Made by a program: the position numbers and the translations under genes. A stretch of DNA of 64,000 nucleotides from an uncultured Gemmatimonadales bacterium. Its GTDB lineage: Bacteria; Gemmatimonadota; Gemmatimonadetes; Gemmatimonadales; Gemmatimonadaceae. Position 1 is the stretch's first letter, and each line of letters begins with the position of its first letter. The stretch spans positions 480,001 through 544,000 of the forward strand of contig CAWKNZ010000002.1 of NCBI GenBank assembly GCA_963851265.1, given 5' to 3'. The notes under the pieces are model-generated. The model saw only the letters and a program-made list of their open reading frames with translations, had not been told where the DNA came from and did not search any database. Shown here piece after piece: positions 614 through 64,000 of this stretch.

Positions 614-1570
614 CTACGAGGCCCGACCCGTCACCCCCGCGAGGAACGGCAGCACCGCCGCGAACAGCGCGTCCGGCTGCTCGACGTACGGGACGTGCCC
701 GCACCGCTCCAGCACCGCGAGTCGCGCGCCCGCGACGGCCGCGACGAGCGCCTCGCTCGACGCGAGCGGGATCGGGTCCTCGCGCCCGTGCGCGACGAAC
801 ACCGGGCAGGCGATCCGGCCGAGGTGCGGCACCAGGTCGTAGTCGCCTAACGATTCCCAGACGCTCTGCTGCACCCGCCCGGTGACGCGGAACGGCGTGA
901 GGTCGCGCGCCCGCTCCGGATCGAAGAAGTACCCCGCCACGCTCAGCTCGAACGCGCGCTGCCGGTACGCCTCGGGGTCGCGCTCGCGCAGGCCGCCCGC
1001 TGCCAGCTCGGCGCGCATTGCCGCGATCCGCGGGTCCTGCGACCGCCGGGCGAACTCCCCCTCGAAGTGCTCGCGGAAGCGGCGCGTGACGGGCGCGGGG
1101 TCGATCAGCGTGAGCGAGGCGGGCGCGACCCTCGCGTGCGCGCTCGCGCCGCCGACGGGCGCGCCTAACGTCGCCAGCGCGACGCCGGCCGCGTCGAGCG
1201 CGTAGAGCAGCGCGAGCAGTCCGCCCCAGGAGTAGCCCACGAGGTGGAGCGGGCGGTCGCCGACGAGTTCGGCGGCGACGCGGGCGAGGTCGTCCACGTG
1301 GGTGCGCCAGGTGACCGGCCCCACGTCGTCGGCCGCCGTCTTCGAGCGCCCGCCGCCGCGCTGGTCGTAGAACACGCAGTCGTACCGATCAGCGAGCCGC
1401 AGCAACTGCGGCAGCAGGTACCGGTGGTCCGCGCCGGGACCGCCGTGGAGCACGAGCAGGCGGGGCGCGGCGGAGGTCGCCGGGCCGGGGCCCCAGGCGG
1501 CCCAGTAGAGCGGGCGGGTGGTCGTCGCGGTGTCGCCCGCGGCGCGAGGGGCGGGGATGGGGAGCGGCAT
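614..1570 (-). CDS. Alpha/beta hydrolase, proline iminopeptidase-like
   Basis: HGGPG, YDQRGGGRS, GYSWG nucleophile elbow, C-terminal GH; start taken at MPLPIP (alternative 1621). Confidence 0.85.
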   Translation of the reverse strand: MPLPIPAPRAAGDTATTTRPLYWAAWGPGPATSAAPRLLVLHGGPGADHRYLLPQLLRLADRYDCVFYDQRGGGRSKTAADDVGPVTWRTHVDDLARVAAELVGDRPLHLVGYSWGGLLALLYALDAAGVALATLGAPVGGASAHARVAPASLTLIDPAPVTRRFREHFEGEFARRSQDPRIAAMRAELAAGGLRERDPEAYRQRAFELSVAGYFFDPERARDLTPFRVTGRVQQSVWESLGDYDLVPHLGRIACPVFVAHGREDPIPLASSEALVAAVAGARLAVLERCGHVPYVEQPDALFAAVLPFLAGVTGRAS

Positions 1571-1656
1571 GGGGCGAAGATAGCCACGGCTCACCGGCGC
1601 TCCGCCGGCGCGCGCGCCCATGGCGTCCCGGTCGCCGGCGGCTCACGCCGAGCCCG

Positions 1657-2559
1657 TCACGCGAACCGCGCGACCACCCCCACCGTGTTCACGTGCACCG
1701 CGACCGTGTCCCGCACGTGCCGCCCGTAGCCGCCGGCGATCGTCGCGCACACCGGGATCCCCACCTCGCGGCACGCCTCCAGCACCATCCAGTCGCGCCG
1801 CACGAGCCCGTCGAACGTCAGCTTCAACCGGCCCAGGCGGTCCCCCTCGTGCGGGTCGGCGCCGGCGAGGTAGACGACGAGGTCGGGCGCCGCGTCGCGC
1901 AACACGCGCGGCAGGTGGGCGCCCAACAGGGCGAGGTACTCGGCGTCGCCCGTCCCGTCGGCCAACTCCACGTCGCGGGCCCCAGGGACCTTGTGGAAGG
2001 GGAAGTTCTTCGCACCGTGCATCGAAAACGTGTACACGTCGGGGTCGCCCGCGAAGCACGCGTGCGTGCCGTTCCCCTGGTGCACGTCGAGGTCGACCAC
2101 GCACGCCCGGCGCACGTGCCCGGCGCGTTGCAATCGACGGATCGCAACGGCGACGTCGTTGAAGGTGCAGAACCCCTCGCCCCGGTCTGGGAACGCGTGG
2201 TGCGTGCCGCCCGCGAGGTTCATCGCCACGCCGTACTGCAGCGCGGCCTCCGCGGCCTCGCACGTGCCGCGTACCACGCGGTACGCGCGCTCGACGAACG
2301 CCGGCGACCAGGGAAGTCCGATGCGCCGCTGCTCGGCGTAGGGCAGGGTGCCGTCGGTGACCTGCCCGACGTACTCGGGCGTGTGGACGAGGAGCAGGTC
2401 GTCGAGCGGCGCCCGCGGCGGGTCGTGCATCCGCTCCGGCGGCACCAGCCCCGCGGCGAGCACACCCTCGCGCAGCAGGGCGTACTTCGCCATCGGGAAG
2501 CGGTGACCTTCGGGCAGCGGGATCGCGTACGCCGCGGAGGACCAGAGGTGGAGCGGCAC
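1657..2559 (-). CDS. Histone deacetylase family protein
   Basis: GGTHHA, GFCTFND, DLDVHQGNGT, GADPHEGD, GGY motifs. Confidence 0.93.
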   Translation of the reverse strand: MPLHLWSSAAYAIPLPEGHRFPMAKYALLREGVLAAGLVPPERMHDPPRAPLDDLLLVHTPEYVGQVTDGTLPYAEQRRIGLPWSPAFVERAYRVVRGTCEAAEAALQYGVAMNLAGGTHHAFPDRGEGFCTFNDVAVAIRRLQRAGHVRRACVVDLDVHQGNGTHACFAGDPDVYTFSMHGAKNFPFHKVPGARDVELADGTGDAEYLALLGAHLPRVLRDAAPDLVVYLAGADPHEGDRLGRLKLTFDGLVRRDWMVLEACREVGIPVCATIAGGYGRHVRDTVAVHVNTVGVVARFA

Positions 2560-2612
2560 GTCGGGAAGGCCGGCGGGCGCGCGCCGCGGCGCCTGACGAA
2601 CCGTCGACTGCG

Positions 2613-3965
2613 CTACCGCGCCGCCACCGCCGTCGCGGCGCCGTTCTGCACGTACACCACGCCGCCCTTCATCACGAAGCTGACGCGCTGCGTGACCGTG
2701 ATGTCCTGCAGCGGATCCCCCGGCACGGCGACCACGTCGGCCAGCCGTCCCGCCGCGAGCGTGCCCACGCGGTCCTGCCAGCCGAGCAGGCGCGCCGCCG
2801 TCGACGTCCCGGCGACGATCGCCTGCATCGGCGTCATCCCCGAGCGCACCATCAGCCCGAACTCCTCCGCGTTCTTACCGTGCGGCCCGACGCCCGCGTC
2901 CGTGCCTAACGCGATCGGGATGCCGTAGCGCAGCGCGAGCTGGACGCGCCGCGGACCGGCCGCGTACGCCGCGAGCGCCTTCTGCGCGCGCAGCCCCTTG
3001 AGCGTGCCGTTCTCCGCCGCCGTCTTCGACGCCTCCATCGCCTGCAGCGTCGGGACGAGGTACGTGCCGCGCGCCTTCATCATCCGCGCGCCCTCCTCAT
3101 CGAGGAACGTGCCGTGCTCGATGCTCGTCACCCCCGCCTGCACCGCCAGCCGGATCCCCTCGGCCCCGTGCGCGTGCGCGGCGACCGGGCGTTCGAGCTT
3201 CTTCGCCTCGCCCACGATCGCCTGCATCTCTTCGAGCGTGTACTGCGTGGCGCCGATCGCGTCCCCCTCCGAGAGCACGCCGCCCGTCGCGCAGATCTTG
3301 ATCACGTCGGCGCCGTACTTCACCTGGTAGCGCACGGCCTTGCGCCCCTCGTCCGCGCCGTCGGCCACGCCGGTGCGGTAGTCGGCGTCGGCCAGCCCCG
3401 GCTTGAAGCCGTTCTCGTCGCAGTGGCCGCCCGTGATGCCGAACGAGTGCCCCGCGTTCTCCATCCGCGGGCCGACGGCGTGCCCCTCGTCGACGATCTT
3501 GCGCAGCGCCATGTCGTCGAAGTCGGGCGACCCCACGTTGCGGATGCTCGTGAAGCCCGCCATCAGCGTCTTGCGCGCGTTCTCCGCGCCCAGCAGCGCG
3601 TTGTAGGCGGGAAAGTCGCGCACGATCGCGTCGTCGCCGCCGGGCTGGCTCAGCGAGCGCCCGATGATGTGCGTGTGCGCGTCGATGAAGCCGGGCATGA
3701 GCGTGACGTCGCCGAGGTCGACTACGCGGGCACCGCTCGGGATGGTCACGCTCGCGGCCGGGCCGGCGGCGGTGATCCGGTCGCCGGTGATCACGACGGC
3801 CGCGTCGCGCACCGTGGCGGCACCGGTTCCGTCGATGAGGCGCGTGGCGCGAAGCACGACCGTCTGCCGCGCGACCTCGGGCGTGGCGGCGGGGAACTGC
3901 GCGGCGGCCGGGCGCGAAGCGGACAGGCCGAACAGCGCGAGCGAGGCGAGCGTGAGGCGGCGCAT
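2613..3965 (-). CDS. Secreted metal-dependent amidohydrolase (Xaa-Pro dipeptidase-like)
   Basis: Signal peptide MRRLTLASLALFGLS; PGFIDAHTH, AHAHG, SIEHG, GTDAG motifs. Confidence 0.9.
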   Translation of the reverse strand: MRRLTLASLALFGLSASRPAAAQFPAATPEVARQTVVLRATRLIDGTGAATVRDAAVVITGDRITAAGPAASVTIPSGARVVDLGDVTLMPGFIDAHTHIIGRSLSQPGGDDAIVRDFPAYNALLGAENARKTLMAGFTSIRNVGSPDFDDMALRKIVDEGHAVGPRMENAGHSFGITGGHCDENGFKPGLADADYRTGVADGADEGRKAVRYQVKYGADVIKICATGGVLSEGDAIGATQYTLEEMQAIVGEAKKLERPVAAHAHGAEGIRLAVQAGVTSIEHGTFLDEEGARMMKARGTYLVPTLQAMEASKTAAENGTLKGLRAQKALAAYAAGPRRVQLALRYGIPIALGTDAGVGPHGKNAEEFGLMVRSGMTPMQAIVAGTSTAARLLGWQDRVGTLAAGRLADVVAVPGDPLQDITVTQRVSFVMKGGVVYVQNGAATAVAAR

Positions 3966-4015
3966 GGGGCGCGGGGGGTGGGGGAGGCGGGGCAGGGCGG
4001 GAGGGAACGCTGAAG

Positions 4016-4933: not shown

Positions 4934-6387
4934 TCCCCGCGCCGGCCTAACGTCACGCTCGTGCGCACCCGCTCGCCGCCGCGCAGCACCACCACGGCGA
5001 CCACGTCGCCCGGCGCGTGGCTGTAGAGCGCGTCGGTGTAGCTGTACAGGTCGGTCACCGGCTTCCCGCCGAACTCCACGACCAGGTCGCCGCCCTTGAG
5101 CCCGGCCCTGTCGGCGGGACTCCCCGGCGTGACGCCCTGCAGCTTGAGCCCCTTCACGTCGTCGGCCGACATGTCGGGCACCGAGCCCAGGTACGGCTGC
5201 GGGCCGCCCGAACCCGGCCCGCTGGCCATCGTCGGCCGCGCCGGTGCGCGGCGGAACGTGAGCCGCGCCGGCCGGTCCGCCACGCGCCGCAGCACGCCCT
5301 CGGCGAGCGCGATCACGCGCGCCTCGCCGGGCGCGTTGATCTTCGCGGCCACGTCGGTCGCGGCGTGGTAGTCCGCGTGCTGGTCGGTGAAGAAGTGCAG
5401 CACCGGGACGCCCGCTTCGTAGAACGACGCGTGGTCGCTCGGCCCCTCGCCGTCGCCTAACGCCTTCACCTGCAGCCGCGGGCCCGCCGCGTTCGACGAG
5501 TCGAGGAGCGCCGGCAGCTCGTCGGCCGTCGCGACGCCGTACACCAGCAGCTTGTCGTTCGCGAGCCGCCCGACCATGTCGAAGTTGAGCATCGCGCTCG
5601 CGCTGTCGAGCGGCAGCGGGCTGTGCGCGACGAAGTACTGCGAGCCGAGCACGCCGAGCTCCTCGCCGCTGAACGCCACGAAGAGTACCGAGCGGCGCGC
5701 CGGGCGCGCCGAGACGCGCGCCGCGAGCTCGAGCACCGCGGCCACGCCCGACGCGTTGTCGTCCGCACCGGGGTGGACGACCGCGCCGGCCTTGGGGTCG
5801 GTCGCGAACTGCGTCTCGCGGCCGAGGTGGTCGTAGTGGGCGCCCACCACCACCACCTGCCCGCGGAGCGCCGGGTCGGTGCCCGCGACGAGGCCGACCA
5901 CGTTCTCGGCCGGGAGGGCGAACGGCTTGCCCGCGTGCGCGAGCGCCGCGGAGCGGGCCGAGAAGCGCTGGTAGTAGCTCGCGCACGGAACGCTGTCCGC
6001 GGCGTCCGCGCCGGTCACCCCCGACGCGTTCGGCCCCGACGCGTTCGGCCCCGAAGCGTAGTCGCGGGCGGGACCGGGGACGGCCGACACGTGGGTCGCG
6101 CACCGCTCCGCGTCCGCCGGGTCGACGACGACGGGCGTGAGCCCGAGAGTGCCGAACCGCCGCGCCACGTACGCCGCGGCCGTGTCCGCGCCGGGCGAGC
6201 CGGTGAAGCGCCCCTCCAGCCGCGGGCTCGCGAGGTAGGCGATGTCGGCCTGCACGCGCGCGGCGACCGCGGCGGTCGAGGTGTCCGCCCTCGCCCGGCC
6301 GCGGTGGTCGGCGTGTTGGGCCGGCAGCACCGCCGGCGCGCCGAGGAGCACGCCCGCGGCCAGTCGGAGGGAACGTCGCAGCAGCAT
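4930..6387 (-). CDS. M28 family peptidase with C-terminal PDZ domain
   Basis: GAHYDHLG, GADDNASG, GEELG, NFDMVG, SDH, YH; YLGSVPD...GSPADRAGLKGGD PDZ. Confidence 0.92.
   Translation of the reverse strand: MLLRRSLRLAAGVLLGAPAVLPAQHADHRGRARADTSTAAVAARVQADIAYLASPRLEGRFTGSPGADTAAAYVARRFGTLGLTPVVVDPADAERCATHVSAVPGPARDYASGPNASGPNASGVTGADAADSVPCASYYQRFSARSAALAHAGKPFALPAENVVGLVAGTDPALRGQVVVVGAHYDHLGRETQFATDPKAGAVVHPGADDNASGVAAVLELAARVSARPARRSVLFVAFSGEELGVLGSQYFVAHSPLPLDSASAMLNFDMVGRLANDKLLVYGVATADELPALLDSSNAAGPRLQVKALGDGEGPSDHASFYEAGVPVLHFFTDQHADYHAATDVAAKINAPGEARVIALAEGVLRRVADRPARLTFRRAPARPTMASGPGSGGPQPYLGSVPDMSADDVKGLKLQGVTPGSPADRAGLKGGDLVVEFGGKPVTDLYSYTDALYSHAPGDVVAVVVLRGGERVRTSVTLGRRGE
6019..6059 (+). 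repeat. 15-bp in-frame tandem repeat (about 2.7 copies) in the M28 peptidase
   Basis: CCCCGACGCGTTCGG x2 plus CCCCGAAGCGT; encodes ASGPN-ASGPN-ASG. Confidence 0.85.
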
Positions 6388-6398: not shown

Positions 6399-7469
6399 TC
6401 AGCGGTCGGTGAAGTCGGTGTCCGCGGTCACGGAGCGGCACGCCTCGGCGATGACCTCAGCCGCGCGGTCCAGGTCGTCGAGCGCGACCATCTCGTTAGG
6501 CGAGTGCATGTAGCGGTTGGGGATCGAGACGAGCGCCGTCGCCACCCCGGCCGTCGCGTTGTGGATCGCGTCGGCGTCGGTGAAGCTCTCGCGTCCGGCG
6601 GCGTGCAGCTGGAACGGCACGCCCAGGCGCTCGGCCGCCTCGCGCACGAACCGGTACGCCACGGGCGACACCACCGAGCCGCGCGTGAACACCGGCCCGC
6701 CGCCGAGCGTCGCCTCGCCCACCTCCTTCTTCTCGACCCCGGGGTGGTCCGTCGCGAAGGTCACGTCGACGACCACCGCCATCTGCGGCTGCACGCGCAC
6801 GGCGCTCGGGAGCGCGCCGCCGCCGCGCCACGCGATCTCCTCCTGCGTGGTCGCCACCGCCGCCACGCGCGCCGCGCCCGGCCGCTCGGCGTAGCGCCGC
6901 AGCGCCTCGACCACGACGAACGCGCCCACGCGGTTGTCGATCGAGCGCGAGACGATCCGGCCGTTAGGCAGCTCCAGCAGCGGCGTGTCCAGCACGCCCG
7001 CGTCGCCCACCTCGAGCCGCGCGAGCGTCTCGGCCTTGTTGGCCGAACCGATGTCGACCCACAGGTCGGTCAGCTTCGAGGCCTTCTCGCGCTCCTCCGG
7101 CTTCATGAGGTGGATCGGCTTCTTGCCGACCACGCCGAGCACGGCGCCGCCGCGCCCCTCGAAGCGCACGCGCTGGCCGACGAGCACCTGCGGGTCCCAC
7201 CCGCCGATCGCGCCGACGTAGACGTAGCCCTCCGCGTCGACGTGCGTGACGATGAGGCCGATCTCGTCGACGTGCCCGGCCAGGAGAATGGTCGGCGCCC
7301 CCGGTGCGCCGCCGGCGATCGCGTAACTGTTGCCGAGCACGTCCGACGAGACGTCGGCGAACGCGCGGGCGTACTCGCGCCAGACGCGGGCGGGGCCGCG
7401 CTCGAAGCCGGACGGGCCCGGGGTGTCCAGCAGGCGCTTCAGAAAGGAGGTCGAGAGGTCGTTGAGCAT
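6399..7469 (-). CDS. M42 family metallopeptidase (TET-type aminopeptidase)
   Basis: GHVDEIG, IDNRVG, TQEEI, VDVT, TDAD, RYMHSPNE. Confidence 0.93.
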   Translation of the reverse strand: MLNDLSTSFLKRLLDTPGPSGFERGPARVWREYARAFADVSSDVLGNSYAIAGGAPGAPTILLAGHVDEIGLIVTHVDAEGYVYVGAIGGWDPQVLVGQRVRFEGRGGAVLGVVGKKPIHLMKPEEREKASKLTDLWVDIGSANKAETLARLEVGDAGVLDTPLLELPNGRIVSRSIDNRVGAFVVVEALRRYAERPGAARVAAVATTQEEIAWRGGGALPSAVRVQPQMAVVVDVTFATDHPGVEKKEVGEATLGGGPVFTRGSVVSPVAYRFVREAAERLGVPFQLHAAGRESFTDADAIHNATAGVATALVSIPNRYMHSPNEMVALDDLDRAAEVIAEACRSVTADTDFTDR

Positions 7470-8610: not shown

Positions 8611-8791
8611 CGTCCGGTCCTCGTGACGGCGTCGTGTGGGTCGCACGGGGTGTACATGAAGAGTACGACGCGTACCGCATCGGCGTTGCCCCGCCGGCCT
8701 GCACGTCCGGCGCCGAGTGCGCGGGCGGCGCCCGGCGACGTCGGCCGCCGGGGCGGGCTCCGTCCTGGAAGGCCCCGCCCCGGCGGCTCCG

Positions 8792-9706
8792 TTAGGCCAC
8801 GCGCGTCGCGCGCGACGCGTCGGGCGAGCCGAAGCACTGCGGGTGGAACAGGCGTGCGAAGAGTTCGACTCCGTCGACCAGGCGCGGCCCGGGGCGGCTC
8901 ACGTACGCGTTCGCGTCGACGGCCCACACCGCGCGCCCGCCGAGCCACCGCCAGTCCTGGTGCGCCAGAAGCGCGCGGGCCTCCGCGGTCGCCCGCGGCA
9001 GATCGTACCCGCACGGGGCGACGATGACGACTTCGGGGTCGGCCGCCGCGAGCACGTCGACCGGGACCGTCGTCGAGTGCGCGCCCGCGGTGCCGAGCAC
9101 GTCGACCCCGCCGGCGCGGCGCACCATCTCGGGGCCCCAGTGGCCGGCGAGGAATACGGGCTCGGTCCACTCCACCACGGCGACGCGCGGACGCGGCGCG
9201 CGGGCCGCCTTGAGCGCCTCGTGCACCGCGGCGAGCCGGGCGCCGAGCGCCGCCGCCAGCGCCTCGCCCGCAGGCTGTCGGCCGAGCGCTTCCGCCACGC
9301 GGCGGACATCGTCGCAGACGCCGGCGAGGGTCGTCCCGCCGAGCGTGACGACGGCGGGGGGCGACCCGGTCGTGGCGCCGAGACGCGCCGCGATCGCGCA
9401 CACGTCGTCCTGCGACACCGCGCACACGTCGCAGAGCGCCTGCGTGAGCAGCACGTCGGGGCGGAGCGCGGCGATGGCGCCGTCATCGAGGGTGAACATC
9501 GGCGCGCCCGCGGCGGCCGCGGTGCGCACGGCGGCGTCCACCTCGCCCGGCGGGGCGTGTACCGGGACGGCGCTCGCCGTCACCCGCGGCCGTCCCGCAG
9601 CCTCGGGCGGGAAGTCGCATTCGTGCGTGACACCGGCGACGGAATCGAACGCGCCTAATGCGGCACAGATTTCGGTGGCCGCGGGGAGGAGGGAGACGAC
9701 GCGCAT
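8792..9706 (-). CDS. Cobalamin/Fe-siderophore-type substrate-binding protein (BtuF-like)
   Basis: MRVVSLLPAATEI...GVTHECDFP...TQALCDVCAV...PCGY...SRPGPRLVDG. Confidence 0.85.
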   Translation of the reverse strand: MRVVSLLPAATEICAALGAFDSVAGVTHECDFPPEAAGRPRVTASAVPVHAPPGEVDAAVRTAAAAGAPMFTLDDGAIAALRPDVLLTQALCDVCAVSQDDVCAIAARLGATTGSPPAVVTLGGTTLAGVCDDVRRVAEALGRQPAGEALAAALGARLAAVHEALKAARAPRPRVAVVEWTEPVFLAGHWGPEMVRRAGGVDVLGTAGAHSTTVPVDVLAAADPEVVIVAPCGYDLPRATAEARALLAHQDWRWLGGRAVWAVDANAYVSRPGPRLVDGVELFARLFHPQCFGSPDASRATRVA

Positions 9707-15938: not shown

Positions 15939-15941
15939 GGG

Positions 15942-16979: not shown

Positions 16980-17562
16980 GTCGCGTGATGCTCCTGTAGA
17001 TAGACTGGATGGTCGGGCCGTCGTGCCGGGCACGTTCGGTGCCCGCGAGCCACGGAACCGTCGGCCGTGCCTGCACCGGTATGCCGCAGCACGGGACGCC
17101 GCGGTCACCGGGAGAACGCGCGCCGTCACGTACTCGGTCCACGCCACACTGCCGTATGCGTCCGTCCCGGTCGTGTTTGCCGTCGTCGGCGCGGTCGTGG
17201 GCACGTTGCCGCCGTGGGCCGCGCGGCTGCGCAGCTACGGCCTCCACATCGCGGCCGACGTAGTCTTCGCCGTCGACCCGCTCCCGGAGGTCCAGCGGCG
17301 AGCGAGCGCGGTCACCTGGCCCGGCTCGCTATCCACGACCGGGACGTCGTGCGGCCAGCCGCTGGCGGCGTGGAGCTTCCGCCGCGGGCGGCGAGTGCGA
17401 TACCCCCGGGCGTGAGCCGACGTCGACCGAGCCGATCACGGCGCGGGTGCGCGTGGCCCGGAGTCCGACGGTGCCGTGCCGGCTGTGCGCCACGTAGACC
17501 GTGGCTCCGTCCGGTGCGAGCGCGCCCTGTTCGGCGCGCCCGAGCCGGCCGTGCGAAATCGC

Positions 17563-30272: not shown

Positions 30273-30342
30273 GACGAGAGGATGGGGCGTGGCGCGGGGA
30301 CCCACACCGCGCCAGGATCTTGATGTGTGCGCCGGCCCGCAG

Positions 30343-45190: not shown

Positions 45191-49075
<3,885 letters not shown>

Positions 49076-52289: not shown

Positions 52290-52650
52290 CGCTCGACGAG
52301 CCGGGCCGTCGGGCGGCCGCGGACTCCAGCAGGGATCACTGGGAGTGGCGTCGCGCGGTTCGCCGCGCCGGCGTCATCCCAGCTCGCAGCGGGTGCCGTG
52401 AACGTCCCCGACATCGGGTACGCCTACAGGTGCACCCTCGGTTCGATGTTCGGGTTGGGGGCGGTACGGTGGTTCGGTCGAACGCGCTTGCGTCGCCAAG
52501 CCCCTGTTCAAGAGAGCCACGAAGGCATGTTTCGAGACGCCTGATGCCGACGGTACCGGAAGCACTCGCGCGCCGCCGTGGCTCGGCATCCGCCGCGTCC
52601 CCACGTCAGAGCTCGGAATCGCCTCGAGAGATCACGTGGCGACAGGGCGG

Positions 52651-54003
52651 CTACTCAGGCTCTACAGCGCGGCGTGCAGATTCGGACGATACCGCCCGGG
52701 CAAACTCGTCGGCAACGCGAGACCAGTCGAACGTGTCGCGCGCGAGTTCCCAGAACTTCGCGACCGTCGCGTCGTTCCCGGCCGGATCGTCGAGCCCACG
52801 CAGGATCTCCTCTGCCAGCTTCGCCGGAGCGTCGGCGGCCGTGAACAGCGCCCGAAGGGGGTCGGGGAGGAACTCGAAGGCGTACGACGTTCCCACGACG
52901 CACGTGCCTGTCGCGAGCGCCTCGACGACCTTGTTTTTGAATCCGCTGCCGAGCGTCATCGGCGCGACGTAGAGCGCGCTTCGCGCCAGCTCGGCGCGGA
53001 TGTCGTCGACCCACCCGGTGATCTCCACGTTAGGCCCGGCGAGCGCCCGCAACTCGGGCTGCGGGTTGGAGCCGGCGACGACGAACCGGACGCCGGGCCG
53101 CCGCCCGACGACCAGCGGCAGCACGCGTTGGATGAACCACAGCGCGGAGTAGTGGTTGGGCGCGAAGTCCATCGCGCCGGTGAAGATCAGGCGGTCGCGC
53201 TCGCGCAAGGCGCCCGTGAGTGTCGGTTTCGCGCGGATGCCGTTCGGGACCGTATGCACCGTCGCCGCGGAGCCGAGCAGGCGCGTCATCGCGAGTGCGT
53301 CGACCGGCGAGACGAACACGTTGTGGTCGGCGCGACGGCCGTAGTAGCGCTCGAACAGCCCCGCCTCCCACGACTGGAACACCCCCTGCGCGACGTGCCC
53401 CCAATCGCGGCGCTCGAACGCGGACCGACCCGCGCGCGCGTACTGCAGGTTGTGCGAATCCTTCCAGTCGATCGCGACGGGCGCGTGCCGACGTAGCGCC
53501 GGACCGGAAAAAATCAGGTGTGGGTCCGTGAAGACGAAGAGGTCGGGCGATACGGCGCGCGCGACGGCGTCGAGTTCGGCCGTCATGGCACGCCGCTCGG
53601 GGCCGAGCGCGACCGCACGGGCCGCGGGGTGCAGCACCGAGCGCGCCACCTTTCCGCGCAGCCACGAGTGACGCAGCCGGATCCGGCTGTATCCCGTGAT
53701 GACCTGCTGGTCGCGCAGGCGGTCCAGGTACGGTCCGGGGAGCGCCGGGTCGGTGTGGTCGAACTCGCACGCAATGAAGTGCACCTCCGCGCCGCGGCGT
53801 ACCCATTCGCGCGCGATCGCGAACGATCGCAGGTGCCCTCCGTGCTCCCACCCGTGCGCGTAGTACAGTGTGACGCACCACGCGCTCCGCCGCGGCGGCG
53901 CGTGGTGCGTAGTCGCCGGGTCGGTCGGTTGGACCCGTGTACCCGCTGCCGCCGGCGGGAGTGGCCCGCGCGTCGCAGGCCGCGTGGGGGTGGGGCTAGA
54001 CAT
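52651..54003 (-). CDS. Glycosyltransferase family 4
   Basis: HGGHLR, VPNG, FTGAMDFAPN, GSGFKNKVVEALA. Confidence 0.88.
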   Translation of the reverse strand: MSSPTPTRPATRGPLPPAAAGTRVQPTDPATTHHAPPRRSAWCVTLYYAHGWEHGGHLRSFAIAREWVRRGAEVHFIACEFDHTDPALPGPYLDRLRDQQVITGYSRIRLRHSWLRGKVARSVLHPAARAVALGPERRAMTAELDAVARAVSPDLFVFTDPHLIFSGPALRRHAPVAIDWKDSHNLQYARAGRSAFERRDWGHVAQGVFQSWEAGLFERYYGRRADHNVFVSPVDALAMTRLLGSAATVHTVPNGIRAKPTLTGALRERDRLIFTGAMDFAPNHYSALWFIQRVLPLVVGRRPGVRFVVAGSNPQPELRALAGPNVEITGWVDDIRAELARSALYVAPMTLGSGFKNKVVEALATGTCVVGTSYAFEFLPDPLRALFTAADAPAKLAEEILRGLDDPAGNDATVAKFWELARDTFDWSRVADEFARAVSSESARRAVEPE

Positions 54004-59022: not shown

Positions 59023-59055
59023 CCGCCCCGCCCGCGCTCCCACATCCCACACGCC

Positions 59056-60120: not shown

Positions 60121-61808
60121 CGGCGACGTTCGCTGCGCCAGGCGCAGCGCGGACTGAGTCTCTCGCCGGCGATCGAGTCGTGCGACCGGCACCCGTTCGC
60201 GAATGGTGGTCGAAGCCGTGGGTGATCGTCCTTGCCGCCGTCGTGGTTCGTCTGCTCGCGCTCCTCTTCATCGAGGGCGACGTGAACGACGGTACGACCC
60301 GGATCGGTACCGCGGCCGCGTGGTTTTTCGACGGCGTGCCGACGTTCGGCCGGACCGTCTGGGGCGAGGGGAACTACGTGCTGCCGGGGCTCGCGCTCCT
60401 CGTCTGGCGCGACCCGTTCTGGAGCGTGCGCATCCTGTACGCGCTCATCGCGGCGACGAACGCCTGGCTGGCGCTCAAGGTCACGTCCGAAGCCTTCGAC
60501 CTGCGCGCCGGCGCGGTGACTGGCTGGATCGTGGCGCTGATGCCGTTCCACCTGTTCATGTCGTCGAACGGCGCGACGAGCGAGGCGCCGTACATCACGT
60601 GCATTCTCGCGGCCGTCTGGGCCGTGATGCGATATCGACAGACGCCGCGAGCGAGCCTCGCGGCGATTGCGGGGCTGGCCCTCGCGTTGGCGACGACCGT
60701 CAGATTCGACGGGGTGATCTGGGGTCTGCCGCTCGCCGCGTCGTTCGTCCTCCTGCTTCCTGGCGAGCGGGCGCGGTTCCACATCGAACGTCGCACCGTC
60801 GGCCACCTCGCAATCTTCGGCGTCTGCGGGCTGCTCTACGTGCTCGTGATCTTCTGGCGCTGGTCGATGTTGTATCCAACGCCGTGGTACCCGCTCGATC
60901 AGGCGAAGCTCAACACGCTGCAGTTTTTCGCCGGCGGGCAGCATCAACGGTGGCCGAACTGGCTGTACCAGACGTACGTGGTGCTGTTCTGGCCGGCGGC
61001 CACGCTCGCGATCCTCACGCCGGGACTCGGGATCGTGAGCTGGGTCGGCTTCGTCGCCGCACTGCGACGCGTCGAGCGCGCGGCGGTCCCGCTCGCGCTC
61101 GGGCTGGTAGTCGCGAGCGCATGGCTCGCGTACGCCGCGTTCACCCACGCCATCCTCGCGCAGTTTCGCTACGCGCTGATCATCGCGGTCACACTCGCGG
61201 CGTACACGGTGCCCGGCGTGCGGGCAATCCGGGCGCGGCTCCCGCGCCTGCGCCTAACGCACGTCGTGGTCGCGACGGCGGCGGTCGGCCTCGCGTGGCA
61301 GGCCGTCGTGAGCGACGCGTCACTGCATGCACGCGGGGTGCTGACAAACCAGTTCCGATCGATCAGTCCGGTCCAGCGGTCGCAGTTCGCCGCGCGCGAC
61401 CTCCTCACCTGGGCGGATCGTAACGCGACCCGCGAGACGCCGTTGGTGGTGACGCCCTACATCCAGTCGTCGTACTACCTGCTGAAGGGGCGCCCGCTCA
61501 TCGACGCGGGGCGGGTAATCGTTCAGTCGTACTACCTGCCGAACAGTCAGTTCGTTCACACCCGCGCCTCGCTCGCGGACGTGCTGGCTCAGGAGATCGC
61601 GGGCGCGCGCTGGGTAGCGACCAGCACCGGGACCCGCCAACTCGGCCTCCGCGACGGAATGGCGTCGGAGCTTGTCGCCCCGACGCGACTCGGTTCCACC
61701 TATCAGTGGCACGGGATCCAACTTGCGCCGGTCGCGAACTGGGGAGACATCCAGTTGTGGCGAGTCGAGCGCGCCACGCACGAACGCACGACCGGAACGC
61801 GCGAGTAG
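60117..61808 (+). CDS. GT-C fold membrane glycosyltransferase (GtrII/GT39-like)
   Basis: Acidic loop after TM1 (GDVND), SEAP, VRFDG, FRYAL; about 11 TM helices; ATG overlaps the GtrB stop. Confidence 0.65.
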   Translation: MTATFAAPGAARTESLAGDRVVRPAPVREWWSKPWVIVLAAVVVRLLALLFIEGDVNDGTTRIGTAAAWFFDGVPTFGRTVWGEGNYVLPGLALLVWRDPFWSVRILYALIAATNAWLALKVTSEAFDLRAGAVTGWIVALMPFHLFMSSNGATSEAPYITCILAAVWAVMRYRQTPRASLAAIAGLALALATTVRFDGVIWGLPLAASFVLLLPGERARFHIERRTVGHLAIFGVCGLLYVLVIFWRWSMLYPTPWYPLDQAKLNTLQFFAGGQHQRWPNWLYQTYVVLFWPAATLAILTPGLGIVSWVGFVAALRRVERAAVPLALGLVVASAWLAYAAFTHAILAQFRYALIIAVTLAAYTVPGVRAIRARLPRLRLTHVVVATAAVGLAWQAVVSDASLHARGVLTNQFRSISPVQRSQFAARDLLTWADRNATRETPLVVTPYIQSSYYLLKGRPLIDAGRVIVQSYYLPNSQFVHTRASLADVLAQEIAGARWVATSTGTRQLGLRDGMASELVAPTRLGSTYQWHGIQLAPVANWGDIQLWRVERATHERTTGTRE

Positions 61809-61836
61809 TCGACCCGGCGATCAGCCCCCGGATTTA

Positions 61837-61886: not shown

Positions 61887-61888
61887 CA

Positions 61889-63346
61889 TCACGCGCGGGC
61901 GAGCCCGGTCGTCGGCGCGCGGCCGACCATCCGCGCGGCCACACCGCGCCGCGCACTACGCGGCGGCGCGGAGGGAACGCCGCCGCGCAGCGACTCCGCC
62001 TCATAGACACGCCCTGCGTACGCGGCCAGCGCCAGCGTGAAGAAGAGCAGCGGGTTGTAGGCGTGCGACAGGAACATCGCTCCGGAGAGGAATCCGGTGA
62101 GCGTGGCGAAGATTTCCGGGCGGTACAGCTGGCGTGGAGCGCTCGCCTTCGGCCGGCGCCAGAGGGGGAACGATCCGCGAACGGCAGTCGTGATCATTCC
62201 GAACAGCGCAATTCCGCCGAGGATCCCGATCTCGACGAGCACCTGGAGATAGGTGTTGTGGGCCGTGAGCCAACCTCCGCTGCGGCCCTGGCTGGCGAAG
62301 TACTCGCCCTCGCGCAGTCCGTACCCGCCTGGCCCGACGCCGATGATGGGCCGGCGGATGAAGTAGCCCAGCCCACGCTGCCAGATGATCCACCGGCCGG
62401 CGTCCGTGTTGAACGTGTAGTCGTTCCCGATGTCCAGAAACGAGGCCGTTCGGATCCGGAACGACTCGGGTCCGAACATCCACGCGAGAGGAATCGCGAT
62501 GACGATGACCGTCAAAAGCGTGAAGAACCGACCGGGTTTCTGCGCCAGCAGCAGGGTGAGCGTGCCCACGCCGAGCGCAATCGTGCCGCCGCGCGACCCA
62601 GTCTTGAGCGCGACAATGACCGTCACGACGGCCGAGGCCGCTCCGAGCAAGCGCCACAGGCCGCGCTCGCGCAGGGCCATCCCGATCGAGAGTTGCATGA
62701 CGATGACGGCGAGCACCGCGAGGTCGTTGGGATCGTACATGCCGAGCCCGCCTAACCGCGCTCCGCCGAGGCCGTCCATGACGATCGAGCCGAACATCAT
62801 CACGTACGCGGCATACGATCCACCAAGGAGAACCGTCCAACGGATGATGCGGTCGAGCGTCTCTCGCGTCGGCTCGCACAGCATGATCGCGACGAACATC
62901 AACGCCATGAACGGGAGAACGTACATGATGTTGAACGCACCGCCCGGCCAGAGCGCGAATGGGATCGTTATCACGATCACGGCCATGTACATCGCGAGCC
63001 AACGCACGGCAGGCTGCTCGAAGACCATCCGCCAGATCTGCGGACGCACCCGCTGCACGAGCAGCAGGCCGACGATCGTTCCCGCGATGATCGACGGGCG
63101 GATCCGGACGAGCGGCGGGTAGAGCTCGGCGAGTCGCATCACCAGCAACCCGATCAGCGCGACGACCGCCTTCCACGTGCCCTGCCAGTACGCGCCGACC
63201 GTGGTGGCGGCGCGAGCGAGTCCCGGTCGAGGCCCGCGCATCCCTGCGCGGAAGCCCGGAGCGACGCGCTGGGCCGGCGGATACCGGTGATTCGGTGCCG
63301 CCCCGGATGGGGGAAGCGGCCTGGAGGGAGGTACGGTCGCGGCCAT
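61889..63346 (-). CDS. O-antigen ligase / Wzy-like polymerase family protein
   Basis: DPNDLA, TGSRGG, GRWIIW, PIIGVGPG, AHNTYLQVLVEIG. Confidence 0.9.
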   Translation of the reverse strand: MAATVPPSRPLPPSGAAPNHRYPPAQRVAPGFRAGMRGPRPGLARAATTVGAYWQGTWKAVVALIGLLVMRLAELYPPLVRIRPSIIAGTIVGLLLVQRVRPQIWRMVFEQPAVRWLAMYMAVIVITIPFALWPGGAFNIMYVLPFMALMFVAIMLCEPTRETLDRIIRWTVLLGGSYAAYVMMFGSIVMDGLGGARLGGLGMYDPNDLAVLAVIVMQLSIGMALRERGLWRLLGAASAVVTVIVALKTGSRGGTIALGVGTLTLLLAQKPGRFFTLLTVIVIAIPLAWMFGPESFRIRTASFLDIGNDYTFNTDAGRWIIWQRGLGYFIRRPIIGVGPGGYGLREGEYFASQGRSGGWLTAHNTYLQVLVEIGILGGIALFGMITTAVRGSFPLWRRPKASAPRQLYRPEIFATLTGFLSGAMFLSHAYNPLLFFTLALAAYAGRVYEAESLRGGVPSAPPRSARRGVAARMVGRAPTTGLARA

Positions 63347-63358
63347 GGCGGCTCGAAG

Positions 63359-64000
63359 TCAGAAAACGGGTACAGGCGGCGCCGTGAGCGGGCGCACGAG
63401 TCGAGTGTACAGGGCTTCGTGCGCCGCCACCATCCGGTCTACGCCGTACTGGGTACGGGCACGCGCGCGGGCGGCCTCGCCGAGTGTTCGGCGGAGCTGG
63501 GCGTCTGTGAGGACGCGAGCGAGCGCGGCCGCGAGTGTCTCGACGTCGCCGGGTGGGACGAGCACGCCTTCCTGCCCATCCCGCACGGCCTCAGGAATGC
63601 CGCCGACGCTCGAGGCGACGATCGCAGTACCGCTGAACATCGCTTCGAGCAGTGCCATCGGCAGCGCCTCGTTCAGCGACGGCATTGCGAACACGTCCGA
63701 CGCCGCCAGGAGATCGGGGACGTCGTCGCGCGGGCCGAGGAGGTGGACCCGCTGCCGCCACCCGAGTGCCGCGATCCGCTCGTCGAGCGAGTCCGCCGCG
63801 TCCTCGCGGCGGCCGGCGATGACGAGGCGCCACCGGACGTCGGCCGGGATGCGGCCGAGCGCGTCCAACAGCGCCGCGTGATTCTTGTTGTGGAAGAGGT
63901 TCCCGACGGCGACGACGAGCAGTTCGTCGGGTGCGACGCCGAGCGACGCCCGCGTCGCGTCGCGTGCGCCGTGGCGCTCGGGCACGCCGTTAGGCAGGAC
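63359..64000 (-). CDS. Glycosyltransferase family 4, 5' part outside the window
   Basis: LPNG, KNH, EALPMALLEAM, VGGIPE. Confidence 0.88.
   Translation of the reverse strand, partial: VLPNGVPERHGARDATRASLGVAPDELLVVAVGNLFHNKNHAALLDALGRIPADVRWRLVIAGRREDAADSLDERIAALGWRQRVHLLGPRDDVPDLLAASDVFAMPSLNEALPMALLEAMFSGTAIVASSVGGIPEAVRDGQEGVLVPPGDVETLAAALARVLTDAQLRRTLGEAARARARTQYGVDRMVAAHEALYTRLVRPLTAPPVPVF

What the first reader, a model, noticed from the sequence alone, without database searches (positions are those of the whole stretch)
845..63995. Hyper-iterated non-palindromic heptamer GCCTAAC/GTTAGGC written into genes through rare codons
Seen (manual count): 28 exact copies. GCCTAAC on + at 845, 1163, 2904, 4945, 5455, 13822, 16446, 17561, 18904, 26310, 28380, 32809, 38178, 52284, 61252, 62750. 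GTTAGGC on + at 6495, 6963, 8791, 11329, 19189, 24333, 30342, 31614, 46057, 47944, 53029, 63989. Of these, 23 extend to GCCTAACG. A rough zero-order estimate at about 72% GC gives about 6 heptamers and about 2 octamers. All copies lie in genes or on their stop codons: 13 as TTA-GGC (Leu-Gly), 8 as CCT-AAC (Pro-Asn), 3 as CTA-ACG (Leu-Thr), 4 forming stop codons. TTA, CTA and CCT are otherwise rare here, so the word appears maintained at the DNA level, in different frames and both orientations. The 16:12 strand split argues against a polar Chi/KOPS-type signal. Inference: a genome-wide self-signature comparable to DNA uptake sequences or cyanobacterial HIP1, a nucleoid/partition-protein site, or a methyltransferase or phosphorothioate target. 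I do not know of a description of it.
Basis: partly seen in the sequence, partly recalled or inferred. Interest (0 to 1): 0.85.

Follow-up and report, generated by a model that had tools for sequence, protein, structure and literature searches.

The report
Genome-wide GCCTAAC word in Gemmatimonadaceae
This soil bacterium and about a third of its family keep one exact seven-letter DNA word written into their genes against their own codon habits, much like the self-tags other bacteria use when exchanging DNA, but what reads it is still unknown.

Summary
All 28 GCCTAAC/GTTAGGC copies and all 23 GCCTAACG copies lie where stated (shuffles give 2.6 and 1.2). The 4.6-Mb genome, a Gemmatimonadota genome by its best MetH matches, has 1762 copies. 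In genes there are 1285, against 68.5 after synonymous-codon shuffling and 26 once motif-bound codons are masked. 998 of 1293 TTA codons precede GGC.

The word works at the DNA level. Use per available site is similar in both orientations (12.5% Leu-Gly, 17.5% Pro-Asn), and there is no replication-strand polarity. It is maintained: 54 of 72 G-TTA-GGC sites are identical in a congener, against 141 of 262 for the favoured G-CTC-GGC. Copies avoid each other below about 800 bp, and density rises with GC3.

103 of 301 family genomes are rich in it. Two poor genomes have no substitute word. It equals the integron attC core of this order, but over 98% of copies are solitary.

No reader was found: IntI, ComP, PilT, RecC and a type IIG methylase do not track it. 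My best reading (0.4) is a self-tag for DNA exchange, like DUS, USS or HIP1. The scan had already found this word in this genome and in others. I found no paper describing it.

The parts
845..851 (+). GCCTAAC(G); read on the coding (-) strand as G-TTA-GGC, Leu-Gly, in the alpha/beta hydrolase gene 614-1621
   Evidence: same word at the orthologous site in 3 of 3 aligned congeners
1163..1169 (+). GCCTAAC(G); G-TTA-GGC in the same hydrolase gene
   Evidence: kept in 2 of 3 aligned congeners
2904..2910 (+). GCCTAAC(G); G-TTA-GGC in the amidohydrolase gene 2613-3965 (-)
   Evidence: kept in 4 of 4 congeners
4945..4951 (+). GCCTAAC(G); G-TTA-GGC in the M28 peptidase/PDZ gene 4930-6387 (-)
   Evidence: kept in 3 of 4 congeners
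5455..5461 (+). GCCTAAC(G); G-TTA-GGC in the same peptidase gene
   Evidence: kept in 4 of 4 congeners
6495..6501 (-). GTTAGGC on +; read on the coding (-) strand as G-CCT-AAC, Pro-Asn, in the M42 peptidase gene 6399-7469
   Evidence: private to this genome, congeners have the synonymous CCG or CCC
6963..6969 (-). GTTAGGC on +; G-CCT-AAC in the same M42 gene
   Evidence: kept in 2 of 4 congeners
8791..8797 (-). GTTAGGC on +; GCC-TAA-C on the - strand, supplying the TAA stop of gene 8792-9706 (periplasmic binding protein)
   Evidence: kept in 2 of 3 aligned congeners
11329..11335 (-). GTTAGGC on +; G-CCT-AAC in the amidohydrolase_3 gene 11008-12762 (-)
   Evidence: private to this genome
13822..13828 (+). 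GCCTAAC(G); G-CCT-AAC in the FadL/TodX-type outer membrane gene 13043-14455 (+)
   Evidence: shared with 1 of 4 congeners
16446..16452 (+). GCCTAAC(G); G-TTA-GGC in the esterase gene 15942-16979 (-)
   Evidence: not aligned in the congeners
17561..17567 (+). GCCTAAC(G); overlaps the TAG stop (GT-TAG-GC on the - strand) of the OPT transporter gene 17563-19866
   Evidence: kept in 2 of 2 aligned congeners
18904..18910 (+). GCCTAAC(G); G-TTA-GGC in the OPT transporter gene
   Evidence: kept in 3 of 3 aligned congeners
19189..19195 (-). GTTAGGC on +; G-CCT-AAC in the OPT transporter gene
   Evidence: private to this genome
24333..24339 (-). GTTAGGC on +; GC-CTA-AC(G) in the acyl-CoA dehydrogenase gene 23540-24709 (-)
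26310..26316 (+). GCCTAAC(G); G-CCT-AAC in the nucleotidyl transferase gene 26065-26967 (+)
28380..28386 (+). GCCTAAC (no G after it); G-TTA-GGC in the epimerase/glycosyltransferase gene 28227-30272 (-)
30342..30348 (-). GTTAGGC on +; GCC-TAA-C stop of the transketolase C-part gene 30343-31242 (-)
31614..31620 (-). GTTAGGC on +; GC-CTA-AC(G) in the transketolase N-part gene 31235-31960 (-)
32809..32815 (+). GCCTAAC (no G after it); G-TTA-GGC in the homocysteine S-methyltransferase/MTHFR gene 32158-34122 (-)
38178..38184 (+). GCCTAAC (no G after it); G-TTA-GGC in gene 36690-38267 (-), which has no Pfam match
46057..46063 (-). GTTAGGC on +; G-TTA-GGC in metH 45236-49075 (+)
   Evidence: same Leu-Gly site carries the word in both congeners examined
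47944..47950 (-). GTTAGGC on +; G-TTA-GGC in metH
   Evidence: same site carries the word in both congeners examined
52284..52290 (+). GCCTAAC(G); GCC-TAA-C stop of gene 51618-52289 (+)
53029..53035 (-). GTTAGGC on +; G-CCT-AAC in the glycosyltransferase gene 52651-53784 (-)
61252..61258 (+). GCCTAAC(G); GC-CTA-AC(G) in gene 60222-61808 (+)
62750..62756 (+). GCCTAAC (no G after it); G-TTA-GGC in gene 61889-63241 (-)
63989..63995 (-). GTTAGGC on +; G-CCT-AAC in a gene that starts at 63359 on the - strand and runs off the window

Best explanation
GCCTAAC(G) is a signal in double-stranded DNA. It is not a codon, peptide or RNA signal. An unidentified sequence-specific protein reads all seven base pairs in either orientation. 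The word is written wherever a protein tolerates it: Leu-Gly as G-TTA-GGC, Pro-Asn as G-CCT-AAC, stop codons and spacers. It is then kept against the genome's strong preference for G or C at third codon positions.

The most likely function is a self-tag in DNA exchange. DNA that carries the word would be taken up, or recombined after uptake, more readily than DNA without it. In that case the word would accumulate by drive and/or selection, as DUS does in Neisseriaceae and USS in Pasteurellaceae, and as is now proposed for HIP1 in cyanobacteria.

Shown here: the excess, its DNA-level nature, its maintenance at orthologous sites, its spacing, and its distribution among relatives. Inferred, not shown: that the process involved is DNA uptake or recombination, and that a protein reads the word.
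For: Scale: 1762 copies in 4.6 Mb. It is the top word at k = 7 to 10 under an order-3 Markov model. Coding sequence holds 1285 copies against 68.5 (codon shuffle) or 26 (motif codons masked). Related genomes reach 1.3 to 1.45 copies per kb, which is about the density I recall for USS and DUS.

DNA level: use per available site is similar in both orientations. It is 989 of 7915 G-preceded Leu-Gly sites and 199 of 1134 G-preceded Pro-Asn sites. In addition, 120 of 425 TAA stops are GCC-TAA-C and 83 of 725 TAG stops are GT-TAG-GC. 290 of the 1762 copies are intergenic.

Strict word: one-letter variants are at or below background, apart from one variant described under evidence against. The base before TTA-GGC is G in 989 of 998 cases.

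Maintenance: against congener G004 (393 kb aligned, third-position identity 0.698), G-TTA-GGC is identical at 54 of 72 sites. The favoured G-CTC-GGC is identical at 141 of 262, and G-TTG-GGC at 2 of 24.

One tag per stretch of DNA seems to be enough. Neighbour distances under 200 bp make up 0.77% against 5.9% in simulations that draw from the same Leu-Gly and Pro-Asn sites. Distances under 400 bp make up 4.6% against 11.2%. In 0 of 300 simulations were the values this low. The deficit is the same for direct, convergent and divergent pairs.

Density rises with GC3 from 0.12 to 0.55 per kb, and Leu-Gly use rises from 1.8% to 14%. This would follow if both GC3 and the word track recombination, but that link is my inference.

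The uptake machinery is encoded. ComEC is present. A ComEA-like gene lies directly upstream of pilB-pilT-pilC.

The word is also on the two megaplasmids of the cultured Gemmatirosa kalamazoonensis KBS708, at 0.78 and 0.50 per kb in the first 50 kb of each.

Published context, from abstracts only: HIP1 is conserved and thought to be under selection (PMC5861425). HIP1 raises transformation efficiency (bioRxiv 10.1101/2024.09.10.611283). HIP1 is proposed as an uptake recognition sequence (PMC13756078).
Against: No uptake, transformation or binding data exist for this phylum in the library I searched.

No reader was found. The ComP_DUS family (PF16732) passes its cut-off in 1 of 41 relatives and not in this genome. 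PilT is in 41 of 41, so it cannot explain the patchy distribution.

Only 103 of 301 family genomes are rich in the word. Neither of the 2 poor genomes I sampled has a substitute word. DUS, by contrast, has dialects across its whole family (recalled).

The near-absence of one-letter variants looks more like the specificity of an enzyme than what I recall of uptake receptors, which tolerate mismatches.

The one enriched variant, GCCCAAC/GTTGGGC, is 2.7 times its expectation. The sites where this genome has G-TTG-GGC often carry the word in G004 (14 of 24). The word may therefore be eroding in this particular genome, which has the lowest density in its genus.

The spacing effect is weak in the densest genome sampled, G207 (under 200 bp: 21% against 28% expected).

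A test for lower divergence near the word was negative once GC3 was controlled (t = 0.61, 273 genes).

That the word equals the integron R box is left unexplained by this reading.
Confidence: 0.4

Rival explanations
1. Chi-like signal. The word is read on DNA ends by the AddAB-type helicase-nuclease. It switches that enzyme from degradation to RecA loading, so DNA that carries the word is spared and recombined.
For: An adjacent pair of PD-(D/E)XK nuclease genes of AddAB type lies at C3:244.5-249 kb. RecC was not found here and was found in only 1 of 41 relatives. The spacing deficit and the link with GC3 fit any recombination signal. The authors of the HIP1 transformation preprint raise a Chi-like role for HIP1 (bioRxiv 10.1101/2024.09.10.611283, abstract).
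Against: There is no orientation bias beyond what gene orientation and dipeptide supply explain (112:32 versus 13:3), although only 16 sites lay in counter-oriented genes. The excess (about 19 to 49 times in genes) and the overriding of codon bias far exceed what I recall for known Chi sites. Two of the 2 poor relatives sampled show no word of their own, although a modest Chi would not stand out in that test. I did not test whether AddAB is present in all relatives.
Confidence: 0.13
2. Binding site of a nucleoid-organising or chromosome-handling protein. The word would be spaced along every replicon to shape or mark the chromosome.
For: Copies keep their distance from one another. The word occurs on the chromosome and on megaplasmids. 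The largest gap in this genome, 45 kb without a copy, is the mnmE/gidA/parA/parB region. That region is also thin in two congeners, at about 0.2 per kb by my reading of the bins. A nucleoid role was proposed for HIP1 (PMC5861425, abstract).
Against: The gap around parAB is not seen in two other genera: G207 has 1.2 per kb and G068 has 0.82 per kb around parB. Two thirds of the family do without the word and, where sampled, without a substitute. That is unexpected for a core organising function. No candidate protein was found.
Confidence: 0.12
3. Neutral drive by modification-linked or biased repair, as in the older HIP1 model. A methylase marks the word, and a repair enzyme converts near-matches into matches. 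In this reading the word itself has no function.
For: Specificity is strict, with some one-letter variants below background: GGCTAAC at 0.26, GCTTAAC at 0.20 and GCCTAAG at 0.39 of expectation. One intact type IIG-like N6-adenine methylase of 1141 residues lies beside an SNF2 helicase. From memory, enzymes of that kind read short non-palindromic words.
Against: No match to Vsr, C5 methylases, N4/N6 (PF01555) or D12 methylases was found in this 94%-complete genome. The two HsdM-like genes appear broken into several frames. The type IIG-like methylase has orthologues in 38 of 41 relatives whatever their word count. Making TTA from CTC needs two changes, one of them away from G+C, which patch repair does not explain. 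Site-by-site repair does not predict the spacing deficit. Sites are conserved rather than constantly replaced; the HIP1 study used the same argument against biased repair (PMC5861425, abstract).
Confidence: 0.1
4. Site for an integron-type tyrosine recombinase. The word is the R box of attC sites, and it is read genome-wide by IntI or a relative of IntI.
For: Cassette arrays in motif-poor relatives G025 and G027 have attC sites of the form GCCTAACA, about 80 bp, CGTTAGGC, spaced about 550 bp apart. The word fits the attC core consensus RYYYAAC/GTTRRRY (recalled). Integron integrases pass the family cut-off in 25 of 41 relatives. This genome has a cassette remnant beside its IntI and a cluster of attC-like pairs on C10.
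Against: Fewer than 10 of the roughly 880 plus-then-minus neighbour pairs in this genome have attC-like spacing. The remaining copies are solitary and sit in frame inside conserved genes. IntI is split by an inserted serine-recombinase gene here. It appears only as fragments in the richest relative G012 and in G001, and was not found over the cut-off in the rich genomes G008 and G018. It is intact in many poor genomes. No known recombinase reaction writes a synonymous word into a gene.
Confidence: 0.06
5. Translation-level or RNA-level signal: a rare TTA codon pause, or a GUUAGGC element in mRNA.
For: 56% of copies (989 of 1762) are G-TTA-GGC on the sense strand. A tRNA-Leu(UAA) gene is kept.
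Against: The antisense reading G-CCT-AAC is used at least as often per available site (17.5% against 12.5%). The word also covers stop codons and 290 intergenic places. The required G before TTA belongs to the previous codon (989 of 998).
Confidence: 0.01

Closest known systems
DNA uptake sequences: DUS of Neisseriaceae and USS of Pasteurellaceae
   Same: A short exact word present in thousands of copies, in both orientations. It is written into genes in the frames that proteins tolerate, and also lies between genes. It is conserved between species. Density reaches about one per kb. Copies are spaced apart. The word is thin in atypical DNA.
   Different: No uptake bias has been measured. The word is 7 to 8 bp with no flanking consensus, whereas USS has AT-rich flanks (recalled). 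Few copies form inverted pairs, whereas DUS often forms terminators (recalled). No ComP-type pilin was found. Only about a third of the family carries it, and the 2 poor genomes sampled show no dialect. One-letter variants are almost absent.
HIP1 (GCGATCGC) of cyanobacteria
   Same: It is hyper-abundant (HIP1 15 to 300 times; here about 19 to 49 times in genes). It is conserved within and between reading frames. It is missing from some lineages. Its function is long unknown and now linked to transformation (PMC5861425, PMC13756078 and bioRxiv 10.1101/2024.09.10.611283, abstracts only).
   Different: HIP1 is a palindrome read by known methylases. This word is not a palindrome, and no matching methylase was found. 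I did not test for the 10 to 90 kb periodicity reported for HIP1.
Integron attC core site (R box, RYYYAAC / GTTRRRY)
   Same: The letters are identical. The attC sites of cassette arrays in this same order begin with GCCTAAC and end with GTTAGGC.
   Different: attC sites are paired, imperfect inverted repeats about 90 bp long, and they sit between cassettes. Over 98% of the copies here are single and lie in frame inside ordinary genes. Whether a genome has IntI does not track the word.
Chi sites of RecBCD/AddAB and polar words such as KOPS
   Same: A short over-represented word spread along the chromosome at kb spacing. An AddAB-type enzyme is encoded.
   Different: There is no strand polarity beyond gene orientation. 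The excess is much larger and uses the rarest codons.

Membership tests
DUS/USS-type DNA uptake sequence | DNA that carries the word is taken up or transforms better than DNA without it | not testable with these tools
   Needs a transformation or uptake assay. No paper on competence in this phylum bears on it.
DUS/USS-type DNA uptake sequence | Short exact word, hundreds to thousands of copies, both orientations, far above codon-aware expectation | tested here: met
   1762 copies, 877 + and 885 -. 1285 in genes against 68.5 or 26 expected.
DUS/USS-type DNA uptake sequence | Uptake machinery encoded (ComEC, ComEA, type IV pilus) | tested here: met
   ComEC is present. A ComEA-like gene lies next to pilB-pilT-pilC. 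These genes are also in motif-poor relatives (PilT in 41 of 41), so they do not discriminate.
DUS (Neisseriaceae) | Read by the minor pilin ComP | tested here: not met
   PF16732 passes its cut-off in 1 of 41 relatives and has no match in this genome. A different receptor is not excluded.
DUS (Neisseriaceae) | Often in inverted pairs that act as terminators (recalled) | tested here: not met
   Only a handful of inverted pairs lie within 30 bp, among 1750 neighbour pairs.
DUS/USS-type DNA uptake sequence | Shared by the whole family, with dialects (recalled) | tested here: not met
   103 of 301 family genomes have 150 or more octamers (hand count). In the 2 poor genomes sampled (400 kb and 227 kb) I found no dispersed substitute word.
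HIP1-type highly iterated palindrome | Palindromic word | tested here: not met
   GCCTAAC is not its own reverse complement.
HIP1-type highly iterated palindrome | Sites conserved between genomes beyond the neutral expectation | tested here: met
   54 of 72 sites are kept, against 141 of 262 for the favoured synonymous word, at third-position identity 0.698.
HIP1-type highly iterated palindrome | A cognate DNA methylase present whenever the word is abundant | tested here: inconclusive
   No PF00145, PF01555 or PF02086 match. The one intact type IIG-like methylase occurs in rich and poor genomes alike. Its specificity is unknown and no methylome was available.
Chi / KOPS-type polar signal | Orientation bias tied to the direction of replication | tested here: not met
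   The ratio of the two orientations relative to the gene is 112:32 in co-oriented genes and 13:3 in counter-oriented genes of a strongly polarised 620-kb stretch. Large-scale polarity follows gene strand. The origin and terminus are not mapped in this 12-contig assembly.
Integron attC site | Core letters RYYYAAC ... GTTRRRY (recalled consensus) | tested here: met
   The word fits it, and real attC sites of relatives carry exactly this word.
Integron attC site | Two inverted cores 55 to 140 bp apart forming a hairpin, arranged in arrays beside or without IntI | tested here: not met
   Fewer than 10 such pairs in this genome. None of the 28 copies in the window is part of one.

The most novel reading that the evidence does not exclude
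The identity with the integron R box is not a coincidence. The word would be read genome-wide by an integron-type tyrosine recombinase or a domesticated relative. Ordinary chromosomal genes in these bacteria would then be pre-marked with half-sites. Many genes even end in GCC-TAA-C, as cassette genes do. They would be the raw material from which new gene cassettes are made. That would bear on the unsolved origin of integron cassettes.
Probability: 0.05. Interest if true: 0.92.

Novelty: new variant of a known kind. Interest (0 to 1): 0.7.

Why it matters
Only a few bacterial groups are known to stamp their genomes with a short self-word: Neisseriaceae, Pasteurellaceae and cyanobacteria. How such words arise and what they do is still debated.

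This is a further case, in an abundant but little-studied soil phylum, and it has useful properties:
- The word is not a palindrome and is strictly seven base pairs.
- It costs the rarest codons, so selection on it is easy to measure.
- Whole genera have it or lack it, and one genus (g59) holds both kinds.
- A cultured strain, Gemmatirosa kalamazoonensis KBS708, carries it, so uptake, methylation and binding can be tested directly.

If it is an uptake or recombination tag, it would show that Gemmatimonadota exchange DNA by transformation. It would also give a tool for engineering them.

Tried and rejected
1. Reader candidates by co-occurrence in 41 relatives (15 rich, 26 poor by my reading).
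- Integron integrase TIGR02249 shows no link. By my reading, it is intact in about 6 of 15 rich and about 14 of 26 poor genomes.
- PilT is in 41 of 41.
- ComP_DUS passes its cut-off in 1 of 41.
- RecC is in 1 of 41.
- The type IIG-like methylase of this genome has a match in 38 of 41.
None of these tracks the word.

2. Vsr/Dcm-type patch repair: no Vsr and no C5 methylase was found in this genome.

3. Dialects: k-mer scans of the poor genomes G006 (400 kb) and G126 (227 kb) found no dispersed hyper-word. The apparent word in G126 is a tandem (GAAAGCA)n array.

4. Exclusion from the origin region. The 45-kb gap at parAB in this genome looked like a rule, but it is not kept in G207 or G068 and is only partial in G001 and G004.

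5. Homogenisation near the word. The correlation between third-position identity to G004 and word density (rho 0.37) vanished after controlling for GC3 and first/second-position identity (t = 0.61, 273 genes).

6. Ssn nuclease repeats (PMC11893778; abstract and sections 6 and 10 read) are about 30-bp intergenic hairpins. They are not comparable.

7. L007, a Moraxellaceae MAG locus, has 8 copies in 21.9 kb at 49.5% GC. The copies are scattered. I did not follow this up.

8. MetH as a family-wide orthologue for dating sites. The family holds two MetH types (34 to 39% against 64 to 91% identity), so only subsets could be compared.

Full report
**Observation.** 23 of them are followed by G. Dinucleotide-preserving shuffles of the window give 2.56 and 1.15 copies, and 0 of 100 shuffles reach the observed counts.

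The window is G000:C2:480001-544000 of a 4.60-Mb assembly with 12 contigs and 73% G+C. Its MetH is closest to Gemmatimonadota MAGs, at 66 to 69% identity. The whole genome holds 1762 heptamers (877 + and 885 -) and 1396 octamers, at similar density on all 12 contigs. The word and its extensions head the list of over-represented k-mers from k = 6 to 10. Under an order-3 Markov model the observed-to-expected ratio is 13.9 for the heptamer and 24 for the octamer.

The sequence logo shows seven fixed positions. The following base is G in 79% and A in 14% of copies. The preceding base is C in 54%, T in 22% and G in 19%. Beyond that there is only the three-base rhythm of coding sequence.

**Where the word sits.** I called genes with a simple codon-usage finder of my own (3646 genes, 88% coding). 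It is not a curated annotation. Of the 1762 copies:
- 989 are G-TTA-GGC (Leu-Gly)
- 199 are G-CCT-AAC (Pro-Asn)
- 115 are GCC-TAA-C stop codons
- 72 overlap a TAG stop as GT-TAG-GC
- 73 are GC-CTA-AC
- 24 are GTT-AGG-C
- 290 are intergenic

They lie in ordinary housekeeping and polysaccharide genes.

**Is it more than codon usage?** Yes.
- 998 of 1293 TTA codons are followed by GGC.
- TTA is 8.1% of Leu codons before Gly and 0.23% elsewhere.
- 120 of 425 TAA stops are GCC-TAA-C.
- Shuffling synonymous codons within each gene keeps every TTA and CCT, yet gives 68.5 +/- 7.0 copies against 1285 observed in coding sequence.
- With motif-bound codons masked, the expectation is 26.1 +/- 5.8.

One correction: most CCT and CTA codons lie outside the word (204 of 1903 and 75 of 1065).

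**DNA level, not RNA or peptide.** Use per available site is about the same in both orientations. It is 989 of 7915 G-preceded Leu-Gly sites (12.5%) and 199 of 1134 G-preceded Pro-Asn sites (17.5%). The 3:1 excess of GTTAGGC on the coding strand therefore reflects the supply of dipeptides. The G before TTA, which belongs to the previous codon, is present in 989 of 998 TTA-GGC pairs.

**Polarity.** On the 1.83-Mb contig the + and - counts drift over hundreds of kb, but this follows gene orientation. In a stretch where about 90% of genes point one way and then the other (960 to 1580 kb), the two orientations relative to the gene are 112:32 in co-oriented genes and 13:3 in counter-oriented genes (Fisher p = 1). 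The second class is small, and the origin and terminus are not mapped. Still, a strong Chi-type or KOPS-type polarity is excluded.

**Specificity and turnover.** With motif codons masked, 20 of the 21 one-letter variants are at 0.2 to 1.7 times expectation. There is no halo of near-matches. The exception is GCCCAAC/GTTGGGC at 2.7 times. G-TTG-GGC occurs 449 times, about twice its share in comparable contexts.

I aligned 393 kb to congener G004, where third-position identity is 0.698. At conserved Leu-Gly sites:
- G-TTA-GGC is identical in 54 of 72 (75%)
- G-CTC-GGC, the favoured word, in 141 of 262 (54%)
- C-CTC-GGC in 70 of 149
- G-TTG-GGC in 2 of 24, and 14 of these 24 carry the word in G004
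- G-CCT-AAC in 4 of 11

The word built on the rarest Leu codon is thus the best conserved. Sites are also gained and lost by synonymous changes. G004 has more private sites than this genome, about 59 against 18 by my sum. This genome has the lowest density in its genus.

In the first 20 kb of the window, 9 of 13 aligned copies are shared with G004, and several are shared with all four congeners.

In a second MetH type, compared across nine genomes of six genera, one Leu-Gly site carries the word in 7 of 9. A Val-Arg site is written GTT-AGG-C in 5 of the 5 genomes that encode Val-Arg. This could be inheritance or saturation; I cannot tell which.

**Spacing and composition.** Among the 1188 Leu-Gly and Pro-Asn copies, neighbours closer than 100, 200, 400 and 800 bp make up 0.17, 0.77, 4.6 and 15.4% of distances. 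Simulations that draw the same number of sites per 50-kb bin from all such dipeptides give 3.0, 5.9, 11.2 and 20.6%. In 0 of 300 simulations were the values this low. By 1600 bp the difference is gone. The deficit is equal for direct, convergent and divergent pairs.

In the much denser genome G207 (1.45 per kb in 332 kb) the deficit is weak: 21% against 28% expected under 200 bp, with a coefficient of variation of 0.91.

Density rises steadily with gene GC3, from 0.12 to 0.55 per kb. Position within genes is even.

**Distribution among relatives.** In 41 relatives, the four congeners have 727 to 2415 octamers and G012 has 6360. Several others have a few hundred, and most have under 40.

In 301 genomes of the family, 103 have 150 or more octamers by my hand count. 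The trait is consistent within genera, with densities up to 1.3 per kb (G207: 7821 octamers). In genus g59, however, five species have 3244 to 4141 and three have 66, 8 and 4.

These tallies include unpublished genomes: G011 in the set of 41, and G285, G313, G267, G054, G152, G011 and G053 in the set of 301. Of these, only G054 counts as rich. No conclusion rests on them alone.

Neither of the two poor genomes sampled, G006 and G126, has a substitute dispersed word. The first 50 kb of each of the two megaplasmids of the cultured Gemmatirosa kalamazoonensis KBS708 carry 39 and 25 copies.

**The integron link.** The tight one-strand clusters seen in the poor genomes G025 and G027 are integron cassette arrays. 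Their attC sites run GCCTAACA, about 80 bp, CGTTAGGC, roughly every 550 bp. The word is therefore the R box of this order's attC sites, and from memory it fits the general consensus RYYYAAC/GTTRRRY.

In this genome, fewer than 10 pairs have attC-like geometry. They lie next to a split integrase on C6 and in a cluster on C10. Integrases pass the cut-off in 25 of 41 relatives, with no relation to word count. The richest genome, G012, has only frameshifted pieces. I treat the identity as unexplained. By my estimate a chance fit to the degenerate consensus has a probability of about 0.002, before allowing for the many known motifs one could compare with.

**Search for a reader.**
- This genome shows no match to Vsr, C5, N4/N6 (PF01555) or D12 methylases, or to RecC.
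- It has two HsdM-like genes broken into several frames.
- It has an AddAB-like gene pair.
- It has ComEC.
- It has a ComEA-like gene directly upstream of pilB-pilT-pilC.
- It has one intact type IIG-like methylase of 1141 residues beside an SNF2 helicase. That methylase has orthologues in 38 of 41 relatives, rich and poor alike.
- PilT is in 41 of 41 relatives, ComP_DUS passes its cut-off in 1 of 41, and RecC is in 1 of 41.

No candidate tracks the word.

**Interpretation.** What is shown: a strictly specified, orientation-free word in double-stranded DNA. It is kept by purifying forces at orthologous sites, placed where proteins allow, spaced apart, and richest in the most GC3-extreme genes. 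It is present on all replicons, and it is an all-or-none trait of genera.

That set of features matches DUS and USS best. It also matches HIP1, which recent work links to transformation (abstracts of PMC5861425, PMC13756078 and bioRxiv 10.1101/2024.09.10.611283). I therefore give 0.4 to a self-tag for DNA exchange.

Several things hold that figure down:
- there is no functional evidence
- no receptor was found
- the distribution is patchy and without dialects
- the specificity is enzyme-like
- the test for homogenisation near the word was negative

Rivals are a Chi-like signal for AddAB (0.13), a nucleoid protein site (0.12), modification-linked or repair-linked neutral drive (0.10), a tyrosine-recombinase site (0.06) and a translational signal (0.01). 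The remainder is unknown.

**Novelty.** Searches of the held library found no description. The terms searched were the literal words, Gemmatimonadota with "uptake sequence", Gemmatimonadetes with natural transformation and competence, and abundant oligonucleotides with the genus names. Papers outside that library were not searched.

Earlier agents of this scan reported the same word in this genome and in other Gemmatimonadaceae, and read it the same way. I re-tested their main claims here.

- the codon-aware null models
- the per-site symmetry between the two orientations
- the retention figures against G004
- the spacing deficit
- the GC3 gradient
- the 301-genome census, with the split genus g59
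- the absence of dialects in two poor genomes
- negative tests of six reader candidates

Noticed in passing
G000:C1:182876-227962 (outside the window): This is the largest stretch without the word, 45 kb at 73 to 75% G+C. It holds mnmE, gidA, parA and parB, so it is probably origin-proximal. It is only 73 to 81% identical to congeners, against 86 to 89% in its flanks. The same region is thin in the word in G001 and G004, but not in G207 or G068.
   Followed up: yes
G000:C2:960000-1580000 (outside the window): About 90% of genes are on the + strand up to 1372 kb. After that, about 95% are on the - strand. This is a sharp convergent switch that looks like a replication terminus. Word density is also lower at 1016-1372 kb.
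   Followed up: partly
G000:C6:1-6230 and C10:188000-204000 (outside the window): There is an integron remnant on C6. Its integrase (model positions 2-265 and 260-313) is split by a roughly 2-kb insert carrying a large serine recombinase, and it lies next to small cassette-like genes including a BrnT toxin. C10 has a cluster of attC-like pairs without an integrase.
   Followed up: partly
G000:C7:579717-585511 (outside the window): A type IIG-like N6-adenine methylase (1141 residues) lies beside an SNF2 helicase (759 residues). The methylase is conserved as a single gene in 38 of 41 genomes across three families, which is unusual for a restriction-type enzyme.
   Followed up: partly
L196-L215 (G126, genus g59): This motif-poor species carries tandem arrays of the heptamer GAAAGCA (91 copies in 227 kb), apparently between genes.
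   Followed up: partly
window 45236-49075 and loci L218-L235: Two MetH types occur in the family. The one in this genome is 64 to 65% identical to those of another family of the order, but only 34 to 39% identical to those of most genera of its own family. This suggests paralogy or gene transfer.
   Followed up: no
window 33000-64000: The polysaccharide and glycosyltransferase part of the window has lower G+C (69 to 70% against 75% at 1-12 kb) and fewer copies. There is none between 38185 and 46056. This fits the genome-wide rise of density with GC3.
   Followed up: partly
L129 and L143 (G207 contigs C3 and C17): Two whole contigs of 10.6 and 7.4 kb have no copy, in a genome that averages 1.45 per kb. 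They may be mobile or foreign DNA, or binning contamination.
   Followed up: no
L007 (Moraxellaceae MAG, 21.9 kb): It has 8 copies of the heptamer at 49.5% G+C, about three times my rough expectation. The copies are scattered and not attC-like.
   Followed up: no
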